Shown here: piece by piece, positions 1-63,969 of the stretch
Layout: every line of letters starts with the position of its first letter
Numbering within the stretch: position 1 is the stretch's first letter
From: Octopus vulgaris
Lineage: Eukaryota
Direction of reading: 5' to 3'
Length of the DNA stretch: 64,000 nt
NCBI GenBank assembly: GCA_951406725.2
Contig: OX597839.1
Coordinates: forward strand, 1,984,001 to 2,048,000
Position numbers and translations under genes: made by a program
The notes under the pieces: generated by a model
What the model was told of the DNA's origin: nothing
What the model saw: the letters and a program-made list of their open reading frames with translations, nothing else
Database searches by the model: none

Positions 1-709
1 ACGAAACACCCATGTTTCCCAAAGGTGAATTATCCAAACCTCAAAGAATCCCTCTCAACACATGGCTATGATGCTCTCTCAATACTTCTGCTCGTGATCA
101 AAGGTGCATATATCGTCAGCCACTAAGGGACATGCTCAACTGGTTAAAGTCAAGCAACTGACAAGCAAATCTGTGGTATTTGCCTGTAGCCGATCTTTCA
201 TACCAAGACAAAACAATGAATATAATAATACTTCCAATTAGTTGAGATCAGAAGCCAAGGGAGCTACTGTCTGGTGCCTTGGACAAGTGTCCTCTGCTAT
301 AGCCTCGCGTCGACCAAAGCCTTGTGAGTGGATTTAGTAAACGGAAACTGAAAGAAGCCCGTCGTATGTATGCGTATATATATATATTGATATATAAGTG
401 ATATATTTACATTCTTTATTTTCTCTCCTTGTTTCTTTCTGTGTTTCTTTCTGTGGAAGAGTGTAGGCTCGAAACGTTAAAGACTTTTTTACTTTCCGAG
501 CGTTAAACTAATACATCTGTTTGTTGTCTACTCCACCTGTCTTCGTCTTTTTTTTTGTGAATTCTCTCTCTCTCTCTCTCTCTCTCTCTATATATATATA
601 TATATATATATATATATATATATATATATATATATATATATATATATATATATATATATATATATATATACATTATTATATATATATATATATACATACA
701 CACACACAC

Positions 710-1067
710 ATTACGGAGATGTATTTGCATAACAAGTGACCTGATCTGAGATCGTGTGCTGGAACGAAAACGTGGAAAGTGTTTATAAGCCATTTAAACA
801 CACACACACACACATGCATACACACACACACACACACAACTCTCTCTCTCTCTCTCTCACACACACACTCACACACACACACATACACGCACATATATAT
901 ATACACTGAATGTTGTCAGTGAACAGGTCGCGGTCTCAAAGCGACGAAAATATTTAGCAAATTAAATTTAAATGTTGAAGTGAATCTAACGGTTTTGTTG
1001 CAGTTGTTTTCGTTGCAGCACACGATCTCAGATCAGGTCGCTTGCCATGCAAGTACATCTCCGTAAT
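710..1067. repeat. Short inverted repeat (710-771 versus 1005-1067)
   Basis: ATTACGGAGATGTA..GACCTGATCTGAGATCGTGTGCTG..CGAAAAC and its reverse complement. Confidence 0.75.
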
Positions 1068-1229
1068 ACACACACAGACACACAGATGCTTTAGTGCATG
1101 CGTACACACGCGCACACAGTACACCCACGCACATACCTGATATCTAATACACAGCATCTAGTAAATTATTTTTATCATGTCTTCATCACATCACCATTAA
1201 ACCCCCCACCAACCCCCTCCACCGGTATT

Positions 1230-3860
1230 CCATATTCTCTCCTTCTTTCTTTCCCTTCCTCTCCCTTGTTGCTCTGTCTCTCTCTCTCACACACTCCCCC
1301 TCTCTAAGAACCACCTAACACTCTTCTCTATTTTCTCCTCTCTTCTCCTTACTCTCCCCATTGCTCTCTCTCTCTCAAACTCACACACACAAACTTCCTT
1401 TCTCATACACTCACGCACACTTCCTCTCTAAGATGCTCTTCTCTGTATTCTCTTCTCCTTATTCTCCTTACTCTCCTCCCTTACACGTTCTTACATACAC
1501 ACTCTCCCTCTATAACAATCTCCCTTCCTCTTTTGCCCTTATTTTCCTCTCTCTCTCCCCTTACTCTTTCCTTTACTCCCTCTTTCTCATTCCCTCAATC
1601 TGCTCTCCTTAATCTGCCCCTTTCTCTTCTCCGTTGCTCTTTGTCACTCACATACTCTCCCTCCCTAACAAGGTCCCTCCACTTTTCTCCTTACTCTCTT
1701 CTCCTTCCCTGCTCTCTACCTCTTTTTCTCTCTCTCACACATACACACTCTCATTTCTAACAAGCTCCCTCAACTCTTCTTATTACCTGCTCCTTACTCT
1801 TCTCTACTGCCCTCTCTTTCTCTCTTATTCTCTCTAACGAGCTCCCTCCGCCCTTCTCCTTATTCTCTCCTTTTCTTACTCCCCCCATTGCTCTGTCACT
1901 CCCTCTCCCTAACAAGTTCCCGCCACTCTCATTCTCTCCCCGTTCATTTCGTCACTTATACACTCCCCCTCTCTAACAAGTTCCCTCCATTTTTCTCCTT
2001 ACTATCTACTCCCTCTTCTTCCTTGGTCCTCTCTATCCCTACTTCACTCTCTCCCTCTCTCTCTCACACACAAATACACACTCCCTCTTCTAATAAACTC
2101 CCCTGCTCTTCTCTTTATTCTCCTCTCCTTACTCTCCCACGTCGTTTCTCTCTCTCTCTCTCTCACACACACATACTCTCCTCTCTCTAACAAGCTCTCA
2201 CCGTTATTCTTCCCCTCCTCTTACTCTCCTCATTGCTCTCTTCTCTTCCCACTCGTTCATTCCATCCTATGCTCTCCTTACTCCCTCTCTCCTTATCCTC
2301 TCTCCTATAATTCTCTCTCCGTCCTCTAAACTTTACTCTCTACCGTCACTATTATTAACTCTGGATACAGTCACACATATTACCGTAAAATTACCAAAAA
2401 ACTTGTCACACCTCACAACGTCTTCGTTTGAATTAGGGATCCAAATACGATTCAGTGTTCCATTGCTCTTGTTACTGTTGTGCTGCTGTAACAACTGTTG
2501 ACGCTTTTCGCTGAGGTCGTCGACGTTGTTAGTTTTTTGTTGTGACTGCTGCGCTGTGTTTATTCTTGCGGTTAGTATTGTTGTTGTTGCTGCTGCTGTG
2601 GTCGTTGCCATTGCTGTCAGTGTTGTTGTTGTTTGCTGCTGCTGCTGTTGTTGCTGTTGTTTTTATTGTTGTTGCAACAGCTGCTGTTACTGTGTTTGTT
2701 GTTGTTGTTGTTGTGACTATTATAGTATTTTTTTCTTTTTTTTTGGTGCGATTAGAATTGTTTTGCTTGTTTTTTTTTGTTATTGCTGTTGTTGCTGTCG
2801 TTATTGTTGTTGCTTATTGCAGCCAGTGTTGTTGTTGTTGTTGTTGTTATTGTTATTGCAGCCAGTGTTGTTGTTGTTGTTGTTTTTGTTATTGCAGTCA
2901 GTGTTGTTGTTGTTGTTGTTGTTTTTGCTATTGCAGCCAGTGTTGTTGTTGTTGTTGTTGTTGTTATTGCAGCCAGTGTTGTTGTTGTTGTTGTTGTTGT
3001 TGTTGTTGTTTTTGTTATTGCAGCTAGTGTTGTTGTTGTTGTTGCTGCTGTAACTGTTTTTGATGTTGGTGCTGTTGTCGATTCACTGTCATCGCAAATA
3101 TTGTTAATGCTTTGATTGTTGTTGTTGTTGTTGTTGTTGTTGTTGCTGCTGCTTTTAACGTTGTTGTTGTTCTTGTTGAAGTTGTAGTTGTTGTAATTAT
3201 GGTATTGTTCGGTCTTGTAACTTTTGTTGTTGTTGTGGATGTTGTTGTTCTTGCTGTGTTTTTAACTCCAGGTCAACTCTGATCCAGCAGACCTAACATT
3301 AAAGAGACGTTCCATCCGTGACCGTCTCCTCTTATTATAAGCATAAATCCTTGCGTTGTTCAATGCGTTTATTCCGTATTTAAGACGGTAAAGTGTGATT
3401 TTAAAAGAGAATTCGACTGCTATTTCTTGCAAATCGACTTACTGCACAGAAATTCTTTGACATGTTTGTAAATGTTGTTCTTGTTGTTATTGTGACATTT
3501 GTTGTTGTTGCACCACCAACACCACCGCCGCCGCCACCACCACCACCACCACCACCACCACCACTGCCATCACCACAACCACCACCACCACCACCACCAC
3601 CACCACTGAATCACCATAACCACCACCACCACCACCACCACCACCACCACCACTGCCATCACCACAACCACCACCACCACCACCACTTCCAACACCACTA
3701 CTACGACAGCTACCACCACTACGACCGCCACCACTATCATCGCTATCACCATCAACCACCACCTCTACCATCACCCCCTCTCCACCACCACCACCTCTAC
3801 TACGACCACCACCGCCATCACCACCACCACCACCACCAGCGTAACTACTGCCATTGATTA
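1230..3860. repeat. Low-complexity block: CT-rich, (TTG)n with TATTGCAGCCAG subunits, and (CAC)n
   Basis: Direct reading. Confidence 0.9.
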
Positions 3861-63519: not shown

Positions 63520-63717
63520 CTAACAAACTTTGGTTGTAGAACAAACAACAACTTTAAGGTCAGCCACCCAACATATCACATCTCGAGCATTTAAACACAT
63601 AATGCTTTTTCTTATACATAGAATACAGATGTATTCCATGTATAAGAAAAAGCATTATGTGATATGTTAGGTGGATGACCTTAAATTTCTTGTTTGTTCT
63701 ACAAGCAAAGTTTGTTA
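63520..63717. repeat. Imperfect foldback next to (TA)n; a second diverged inverted repeat lies at about 63041-63262
   Basis: TAACAAACTTTG..ATAATGCTTTTTCTTATACAT mirrored by ATGTATAAGAAAAAGCATTAT..CAAAGTTTGTTA. Confidence 0.7.
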
Positions 63718-63915
63718 TATATATATATACATTTTTGTCAGTTCTCTATGGTTTTCTTTTCGTTGCTTAATTCTACCATCTTTCACTCGTATCCTTTGGT
63801 TTCTTTATCGATAAGCTGATAACTCCCCTTCCTCCTAACCATATAATTTATCACTATAAGCACGCGTCTCGAAAGCAAGCCGACAGAAATTTATAAAAAA
63901 TTTCGTTATTATCGA

Positions 63916-63969
63916 ATCGGCCCCGATTTCTGAGTTAATTCATTTTTGAATTTTCTCGTCATCAGCGAT
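63916..63969 (-). ncRNA. Degenerate hammerhead motif
   Basis: Minus strand ATCG-CTGATGA-C-GAG..AATTCA/TGAATT..CTC-A-GAAA-TCGGG-GC-CGAT; U16.1 lost. Confidence 0.5.

What the first reader, a model, noticed from the sequence alone, without database searches (positions are those of the whole stretch)
446..63969. Many different hammerhead-carrying mini-elements colonise (TA)n microsatellites across the window
Seen: outside the array there are intact or near-intact hammerheads at 16084-16160 (+), 19527-19618 (-), 32606-32694 (-), 55301-55345 (-) and 8837-8896/8301-8360. Decayed ones lie at about 446-485, 16436-16476, 33100-33137, 21824-21853, 23012-23081, 30121-30155, 32423-32457, in both arms of 50568-50788, and at 63916-63969. 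They differ in stem sequence and nearly all lie within a few hundred bp of (TA)n. Inference: many PLE families target (TA)n and leave ribozyme-bearing pLTR stubs, making this putative intron unusually rich in self-cleaving motifs.
Basis: partly seen in the sequence, partly recalled or inferred. Interest (0 to 1): 0.7.

Follow-up and report, generated by a model that had tools for sequence, protein, structure and literature searches.

The report
Mutant-core hammerheads of Penelope retroelements
This stretch holds leftover ends of about fourteen different jumping-gene families, each with a hammerhead (self-cutting RNA) motif and each lying beside a TA repeat that it likely inserted into; this is a known pattern, except that the commonest motif carries a fixed change in its catalytic core yet looks kept by selection, so it likely cuts weakly or works as a fold rather than a cutter.

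Summary
A type-I hammerhead descriptor finds 17-19 motifs against 0.3 in shuffles, and 17 of 17 tested sites lie within 300 bp of (TA)n (42% expected). They belong to about 14 dispersed families. Two are linked here to Penelope-like (PLE) RT/GIY-YIG ORFs with a Neptune/Nematis-type linker; three are retrozyme-like repeats of about 485-550 bp. The window is inferred to be an intron of a DEG/ENaC gene and is 3-4 times richer than the genome sample (about 150,000 motifs genome-wide, extrapolated).

Most 'decayed' copies are not decayed: they carry family-fixed cores (A6U, U4C, U3·G8). In the A6U family, the commonest form, only N7 and H17 vary, the two positions hammerheads tolerate, which points to selection on the fold. 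Copies' 5' ends do not pile up at the cut site, so templates were mostly uncut. Cleavage is untested.

PLE hammerheads, (TA)n bias and retrozymes are published, and this scan found the retrozymes earlier on other DNA of this genome. I did not find A6U described, but the largest survey was unavailable.

The parts
446..483 (+). Family A minimal hammerhead, A6U core (CUGUGGA, bulged A, ACGU helix III), in a ~160-bp 3' pLTR stub (about 402-563) of a Neptune/Nematis-type PLE
5410..5777 (+). Open frame ending in an inferred alternative first coding exon (1a) of a DEG/ENaC gene; phase-2 GT donor at 5778
   Evidence: no transcript evidence
8135..9062 (.). Family I fold-back insertion of a young ~485-bp retrozyme-like unit; hammerheads at 8301-8360(-) and 8837-8896(+), fixed U3.G8 core, C.A opposition at the base of helix II
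11180..11709 (-). Inverted pLTR of PLE family B, with A9C hammerhead at 11355-11398
11710..12645 (+). 5'-truncated ORF of PLE family B (RT C-terminus, CX4CX2C linker, GIY-YIG); all 127 scored genomic matches are 98-100% identical, several with 1310-1312-aa open frames
12783..15338 (.). Family C retrozyme-like array (536-bp unit; about 2.9 units minus, 1.9 plus) inserted in the TA-rich tract of family B's 3' UTR; canonical hammerheads at 12947, 13482, 14018 (-) and 14430, 14966 (+)
15339..15890 (+). Rest of family B 3' UTR/pLTR, with A9C hammerhead at 15728-15771, ending at (TA)24
16083..16161 (+). Family E hammerhead, canonical core and long helix II, in a truncated copy (about 15983-16310) of a probable ~550-bp unit
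16439..16474 (-). Family A hammerhead (A6U) in stub 16367-16517
19527..19618 (-). Family F hammerhead, canonical core, long helix II, palindromic helix III; relatives in 4 of 46 sampled loci
21618..21666 (+).
   Evidence: relative in L191
21821..21857 (+). Damaged hammerhead (helix III broken) in a short fold-back; relatives in L171 and L208 have a canonical core
23013..23079 (+). Near-intact hammerhead, U4C, extra C before GAAA; a relative in L086 has U4
30120..30155 (-). Family D minimal hammerhead (U4C), helix I shortened to 3 bp, in stub 30012-30216
32423..32457 (+). Family D minimal hammerhead (U4C in 20 of 21 copies) in a ~200-bp stub 32353-32556
32606..32694 (-). Family G hammerhead, canonical core, 7-bp helix II base, long loop II
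33100..33135 (+). Family A copy with two further changes (A9G and a helix III change): truly damaged
47610..47986 (+). Open frame ending in an inferred alternative first coding exon (1b) of the same DEG/ENaC gene; phase-2 GT donor at 47987; shared exon 2 starts at G000:C26:2054247, 6.2 kb beyond the window
50568..50788 (.). Fold-back of a dispersed family whose copies read CUUGAAGA in the core, with 5-bp helix II and AGCGCU helix III; motifs at 50607-50645(-) and 50710-50748(+, G5A), both damaged here
55301..55345 (-). Family H hammerhead, canonical core, C.A opposition at the base of helix II, in fold-back 55155-55535
63909..63971 (-). Family J hammerhead, canonical core, C.A opposition; its inverted partner lies about 1 kb beyond the window

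Best explanation
The motifs are type-I hammerhead sequences in the 3' ends of about 14 retroelement families, and these ends were likely written into (TA)n tracts by Penelope-like RT/GIY-YIG proteins from mostly uncut RNA, so the motifs are likely weak, dimer-dependent cutters or retained folds rather than efficient ribozymes. Step 1 (shown): two families are pLTRs of PLEs with a CX4CX2C linker; family A's ORFs are old and mostly broken, family B is still amplifying. Step 2 (inferred): the endonuclease nicks (TA)n and reverse transcription starts at a fixed 3' point; early stops leave 150-550-bp stubs, and second-strand priming leaves fold-backs. Step 3 (shown as architecture, inferred as mechanism): non-coding 485-550-bp units use the same route and give tandem/inverted arrays. 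Step 4 (inferred): each insertion leaves TA tracts at its edges that are hit again, giving chains of different families and the 3-4-fold local excess. Step 5 (inferred): core changes (A6U, U4C, A9C, U3.G8) were fixed in master copies and amplified; in family A the fold stayed under purifying selection after A6U. The host intron is likely a tolerant bystander.
For: Enrichment over shuffles. Family A motif 0.6-1.2 kb downstream of the endonuclease on the same strand in 18 of 30 loci, and adjacent to ORFs in 8 of 10 long-frame loci, two with motifs ~4.3 kb apart flanking the ORF. Family B motif ~100 nt upstream of the 1310-aa ORF and repeated every ~4.6 kb. 3' termini followed by (TA)>=4: A 29 of 51, B 16 of 19, C 8 of 11, D 24 of 26, I 5 of 6, versus 2.6% background. 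Array C has TA runs at the flanks visible and splits B's 3' UTR in the window. Family A: U6 in 96 of 98 copies; N7 G42/U21/A18/C17; H17 U52/A44; 0 of 30 constrained columns polymorphic versus 30 of 98 flank columns, p=1.3e-4; N7 and H17 track lineages (15 and 6 changes versus 49 and 34 shuffled). 5' boundaries within -5..+8 of the cut site: 0 of 31 (A), 0 of 14 (D), 0 of 18 (B). No strand bias in the intron: 9 sense, 10 antisense. PMC11167929 (passages): hammerhead cleavage is not needed for PLE insertion in vitro.
Against: No cleavage, transcript end or circle was observed. Only A and B were linked to ORFs; no ORF link was sought for D, F, G, H, J, 21618, 21824, 23013 or 50568. E (3 of 10) and H (8 of 20) ends are only partly next to TA. 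Many family A 5' sides lack TA, so a 3' TA tail added or expanded at insertion is not excluded. One SINE control was also close to TA (60% within 100 bp; the query contained its own microsatellite), the other was not (6%). The 98 A copies include a few loci fetched twice and are biased towards near relatives of my queries; BLAST selection favours a conserved centre. Monomer MFE folds do not give the hammerhead for most motifs, as expected for dimer types but not positive support. Two B copies start 6-7 nt upstream of the cut site.
Confidence: 0.8

Rival explanations
1. The variant cores are dead ribozymes that hitch-hiked in master elements; the conservation in family A reflects another function of that sequence (RT binding, promoter) or chance, not a hammerhead fold.
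For: A6 changes give low activity (PMC3088659, section 8; A6C cuts >10,000-fold slower in Mg2+ than in Mn2+ in one ribozyme, PMC7151607 passages). Cleavage is dispensable in vitro (PMC11167929). Family B amplifies with A9C and an imperfect helix III. Loop II of family A is also conserved although it should be free.
Against: The only two polymorphic columns among 36 in the motif are N7 (all four bases) and H17 (U or A, G in 1 of 98), the hammerhead's own tolerances.
Confidence: 0.3
2. The motifs are efficient ribozymes in the DEG/ENaC pre-mRNA and have been retained there to modulate its processing, which would explain the local excess.
For: The window is 3-4 fold richer than the genome sample and the 40 kb of flanks hold 9 motifs; several sense-strand motifs have canonical cores (14430, 14966, 16083).
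Against: No sense bias (9 versus 10); every family examined is a dispersed repeat; insertions are nested in chains at TA tracts; sense copies of I, B and C have near-perfect inverted partners that would pair with them in the pre-mRNA.
Confidence: 0.05
3. The (TA)n link is not targeting: TA tails are added or expand after insertion, or both simply accumulate in permissive intronic DNA.
For: Family A often has TA only at the 3' end; motif count and TA density correlate across 10-kb blocks (rho 0.40); one SINE control was also TA-adjacent.
Against: Array C sits inside a TA tract that is continuous in uninterrupted copies of family B and has TA flanks at other loci; other microsatellite types show no association; (TA)n bias is reported for linker-bearing PLEs (PMC8557442, passages).
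Confidence: 0.12
4. The motifs are chance matches in AT-rich, repeat-rich DNA.
For: The descriptor is permissive and gives about 0.3 hits per 64 kb in shuffles.
Against: 17-19 versus 0.3; each site has relatives elsewhere with the same motif, and family E shows double-sided changes in helix II (L244, L251).
Confidence: 0.01

Closest known systems
[quoted passage not shown] 2017 known only through the review PMC6765202)
   Same: Type I, short helix I, bulged base after A9, palindromic helix III, U-rich upstream; many divergent families per genome; mostly single motifs from truncated elements; pairs on opposite strands 100-700 bp apart; U3-A8 and U3.G8 cores already listed.
   Different: None of the 56 representatives in their Fig. 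S3 has A6U, U4C or A9C (their descriptor fixed the core, so it would have missed them). No cephalopod is listed. The extrapolated ~150,000 motifs exceed their 4,000-9,000 in coelacanth and frog.
Neptune/Nematis-clade PLEs (Craig et al. 2021, PMC8557442; passages)
   Same: RT then C-terminal GIY-YIG, CX2-5CxxC linker, 5'-truncated copies, partial tandems and inverted 5' copies, (TA)n bias, hammerhead near the 3' end.
   Different: Clade not fixed by a tree here. Family B has a ~500-residue Asn-rich N-terminal region and a TA-like microsatellite inside its own 3' UTR. Hammerhead cores are non-canonical in both ORF-linked families.
Animal non-LTR retrozymes (Cervera and de la Pena 2020, PMC7229834, passages; Li, Clavereau and Pollet 2026, 10.64898/2026.07.22.740005, part 1 of 5 and passages)
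   Same: Non-coding tandem units each with a type I hammerhead, dispersed, linked to PLEs.
   Different: Units here are 485-550 bp (published examples seen: 220-390 bp), form two-armed inverted arrays in (TA)n, and have long helix II with self-complementary helix III. Circular RNA not tested. They lie in an intron, where Xenopus retrozymes are depleted.
Natural hammerhead core variants (Perreault et al. 2011, PMC3088659, section 8 and passages; Naghdi et al. 2020, PMC7151607, passages)
   Same: U3-A8, U4C (viroid), A6C (phage Bcep176) and a U10.1-U11.1 mismatch are known and keep low activity.
   Different: Those are rare single cases. A6U and A9C are not mentioned in the passages searched; here A6U is the commonest form in the genome sample (10 of 32 hits).

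Membership tests
Type I hammerhead ribozyme (minimal, dimer type) | Core C3 U4 G5 A6 N7 G8 A9 ... G12 A13 A14, A15.1-U16.1, H17 | tested here: met
   Met for C, E, F, G, H, J (10 canonical hits versus 0 in shuffles).
Type I hammerhead ribozyme (minimal, dimer type) | Canonical core in families A, B, D, I | tested here: not met
   One fixed change each: A6U 96 of 98, A9C 49 of 49, U4C 20 of 21, U3.G8 in all full copies listed.
Type I hammerhead ribozyme (minimal, dimer type) | Helices I and II paired; helix III self-complementary | tested here: met
   family B helix III has two A.A mismatches; double-sided changes in family E helix II.
Type I hammerhead ribozyme (minimal, dimer type) | Self-cleavage after H17 | not testable with these tools
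   Only assembled contigs were available, which cannot show RNA ends.
EN+ Penelope-like elements | RT plus C-terminal GIY-YIG in one ORF upstream of the hammerhead pLTR | tested here: met
   Families A and B; Pfam scores are below the curated cut-offs, and the RT and GIY-YIG motifs were read by eye from recalled consensus.
EN+ Penelope-like elements | ORF link for D, F, G, H, J, 21618, 21824, 23013, 50568 | not tested
   No upstream walk was made; D is 72-74% similar to family A copies over part of its length.
EN+ Penelope-like elements | 5'-truncated, partial tandem and inverted structures | tested here: met
Neptune/Nematis clades | CX2-5CxxC linker between RT and endonuclease | tested here: met
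   One CX4CX2C linker in each ORF.
Neptune/Nematis clades | RT phylogeny places the element in the clade | not tested
   No reference PLE proteins were fetched.
Neptune/Nematis clades | (TA)n insertion bias | tested here: met
   weaker for E and H.
Non-LTR retrozymes (C, I, E) | Non-coding tandem units, one type I hammerhead each, dispersed | tested here: met
   C 536 bp and I ~485 bp; E rests on one ~550-bp repeat in L244.
Non-LTR retrozymes (C, I, E) | Accumulate as circular RNA | not testable with these tools
   No raw RNA reads listed.

The most novel reading that the evidence does not exclude
The most abundant hammerhead in this genome (roughly 50,000-75,000 copies) is an undescribed natural U6 variant that stayed functional through successive retrotransposon lineages, either as a throttled or metal-switched cutter or as a non-cleaving fold used by the PLE protein. 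The genome's fixed A6U, U4C, A9C and U3.G8 families would then form a natural allelic series for testing what PLE hammerheads do.
Probability: 0.35. Interest if true: 0.62.

Novelty: new variant of a known kind. Interest (0 to 1): 0.42.

Why it matters
Why PLEs keep a hammerhead is open: it is almost universal in pLTRs, cuts poorly, and is dispensable for insertion in vitro. This genome offers successful families with different fixed core changes, one with a clear selection signature on the fold and one still amplifying, so the question becomes testable with short RNAs. It also shows that descriptor searches with a fixed core would miss about a third or more of the hammerhead motifs in such genomes. 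For the host gene the motifs are probably bystanders.

Tried and rejected
Rfam: no hammerhead hit. Pfam on 87 short plus-strand frames found no host exon and a PDB search with exon 1a found nothing; the gene was found by searching PF00858 in the genome. Sequencing runs: no RNA holder on record; contigs of four runs guessed to be RNA cover the families but cannot show ends, strand or level, so expression is left open. Whether related species share U6 was not established. An exact A6U pattern found 0 matches in metagenome contigs, which says little for an animal repeat. Chromosome-end effect as the cause of local richness: rejected, 6 motifs in 100 kb of distal C26 and 8 in 100 kb of other chromosome ends, like the genome sample. 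TA density alone: 14 versus about 11 runs per 10 kb, too small for a 3-4-fold excess. Pile-up of 5' ends at the cut site: not seen. Homology between families C and E: only short patches, not accepted. The SINE control pattern matched nothing and was dropped. The inverted element at 17762-18355 has a CUGAGGA...GAA-like stretch but no convincing helices. Monomer MFE folding is uninformative for dimer-type motifs. Literature: 'hammerhead + A6U' returned one paper, on twister; 'hammerhead ribozyme + cephalopod' returned two, neither describing these motifs in the passages seen. Lunse et al. 2017 and Arkhipova et al. 2017 are not held, and supplements of Perreault 2011, Craig 2021 and Li 2026 were not read; any of them could already list A6U or A9C.
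Full report
Setting. The window is G000:C26:1984001-2048000 in a 2.8-Gb genome. I take it to be an octopus from recalled SINE sequences and genome size; no call names it. About 57% of the window matches repeats in fetched loci and it holds 91 runs of (TA)>=6. A PF00858 search finds a DEG/ENaC exon 6.2 kb beyond the window. Two frames in the window end in HG-motif segments with phase-2 donors (5778, 47987) that both join that exon in frame. The window from 5.8 kb onward is therefore inferred to be intron, with two alternative first exons; no transcript confirms this.

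Observation. Rfam finds no hammerhead. My type I descriptor (core with at most one change, helices I and II, self-complementary helix III) gives 17 hits at score >=12 versus mean 0.35 in 20 local dinucleotide shuffles; 10 have a canonical core versus 0. A version widened after seeing two sites gives 19 versus 0.3 in 30 shuffles.

(TA)n. 14 of 15 reader sites are within 200 bp of (TA)>=6 versus 31.5% of random positions (p=0.004); in 460 kb sampled elsewhere, 20 of 28 versus 22.7%. With arms collapsed, 17 of 17 are within 300 bp versus 42% (p=0.0012), and other microsatellites show nothing. Family 3' ends abut (TA)>=4 in A 29 of 51, B 16 of 19, C 8 of 11, D 24 of 26, I 5 of 6, E 3 of 10, H 8 of 20, versus 2.6% background. 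Against strict targeting: many A copies have TA on one side only, and one of two SINE controls was also TA-adjacent, though confounded.

Family B. The ORF at 11710-12645 is the end of a 1310-aa PLE; all 127 scored matches are 98-100% identical. Full copies repeat every ~4.6 kb with a hammerhead-like motif ~100 nt before the ORF, the same A9C motif as at 11355 and 15728 (49 of 49 hits). Its 3' UTR contains a TA-like tract, which in the window is split by the 536-bp array. This is direct evidence of a recent insertion into a pre-existing TA tract.

Family A (446, 16439, 33100). Copies are mostly 150-200-bp stubs, but walking upstream gives a truncation ladder that reaches a GIY-YIG domain. The motif lies 0.6-1.2 kb downstream on the same strand in 18 of 30 endonuclease loci, and beside frames of up to 826 aa with RT and linker motifs. 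Among 98 copies (a few loci counted twice; median pairwise identity 80%), position 6 is U in 96, N7 takes all four bases and H17 is U or A. These are the only polymorphic columns of 36 in the motif; 0 of 30 constrained columns versus 30 of 98 trimmed flank columns are polymorphic (p=1.3e-4). N7 and H17 follow lineages (15 and 6 changes versus 49 and 34 shuffled). So A6U predates the subfamilies and the hammerhead pattern persisted after it. BLAST selection could inflate central conservation but would not single out N7 and H17.

Other families. D (30121, 32423): ~200-bp stubs 94-98% alike, U4C in 20 of 21. I (8301/8837): 98-99% alike, ~485-bp tandems and fold-backs, fixed U3.G8. C: 536-bp two-armed arrays at many loci with TA flanks. 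E, F and G have canonical cores and long helix II. H, J and I have a C.A opposition at the base of helix II; some mismatch there recurs in 12 of 34 clusters found in 1.43 Mb of fetched, partly selected DNA. 21824, 33100 and 50568 are truly damaged copies of such families.

Density. Sampled DNA at round coordinates gave 32 hits in 560 kb (shuffled mean 2.8) and 14 in 200 kb, or 3.9 per 64 kb. This extrapolates to about 150,000 motifs, with A6U at roughly 50,000-75,000 (10 of 32 descriptor hits; 15 BLAST copies in 560 kb). The window has 19 hits in 13 events and its flanks 9 in 40 kb, a 3-4-fold local excess not explained by chromosome end or TA density; the window was also chosen for its richness. 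Chains of different families joined by TA tracts (B-E-A at 15.3-16.6 kb, D-G-A at 32.3-33.3 kb, two families at 21.6-22.0 kb) suggest that insertions seed further insertions.

Do they cut? Untested. In unselected DNA no 5' boundary falls within -5..+8 of the cut site (A 0 of 31, D 0 of 14, B 0 of 18), and 28 of 31 A copies run through it, so inserted templates were mostly uncut. Strands are balanced in the intron (9 sense, 10 antisense), and sense copies of I, B and C have near-perfect inverted partners. Available runs were contigs only.

Known work. Cervera and de la Pena 2014 describe this general picture, including single motifs, opposite-strand pairs, high variability and low dimer activity; their 56 representatives include U3-A8 and U3.G8 but no A6U, U4C or A9C. 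Craig et al. 2021 cover PLE architecture, the linker and (TA)n bias. A6C and U4C are known as rare low-activity variants. Cleavage is dispensable for insertion in vitro. An Octopus vulgaris repeat annotation mentions Penelope but not ribozymes (term search). Searches for A6U and for cephalopod hammerheads found no description, but Lunse et al. 2017 could not be read. Earlier notes of this scan report retrozymes of these unit sizes, a CCGAUGA variant and scrambled-order hammerheads elsewhere in this genome; look-ups by family A sequence and by the words 'hammerhead A6U variant core Neptune pLTR octopus' found none.

Verdict. A real, mostly known phenomenon. The new element is the set of family-fixed core variants, above all the abundant A6U form with a selection signature. 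New variant of a known kind; interest 0.42.

Noticed in passing
window 5410-5777, 47610-47986; G000:C26:2054247: DEG/ENaC gene with two inferred alternative first exons 42 kb apart, each with the HG motif; a paralogue lies on the other strand near G000:C26:1.72-1.74 Mb.
   Followed up: partly
L076:2772-6698: The young family B PLE encodes 1309 aa with a long Asn-rich low-complexity region before the RT, and carries a TA-like microsatellite plus poly-T in its 3' UTR.
   Followed up: partly
window 14556-14620 and equivalents in each array unit: Each 536-bp unit holds a second, degenerate hammerhead-like stretch that resembles the ends of family E's motif; overall C-E homology was not shown.
   Followed up: partly
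family A copies, about 60 and 92-96 nt upstream of the cut site: 5' boundaries cluster at two points, suggesting reverse-transcription stops or a start site; subfamily divergence from the query may contribute.
   Followed up: no
window 17762-18355 and 29236-29423: Dispersed repeat with inverted ends between TA tracts; has a CUGAGGA...GAA-like stretch without convincing helices.
   Followed up: partly
window 19858-20182 and 23240-23480: Fold-backs of PLE-like 3' ends without a hammerhead; the first shares a 38-nt terminus with family H, the second is the end of family B.
   Followed up: partly
window 23926-24717 (-): Mariner-type transposase fragments (Transposase_1, E 5e-25).
   Followed up: no
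window 10140-10977 (+): Fragment ending in C2H2 zinc fingers, probably the 3' end of a LINE (recalled resemblance).
   Followed up: no
window 25378-26238, 5859-6699, 51178-51636: Tandem arrays of 152, 168 and 190 bp; the first and last are built from a SINE.
   Followed up: no
L218:7051-7086 (-): Minimal hammerhead with family A/D architecture and a canonical core; a candidate outgroup for dating A6U.
   Followed up: no
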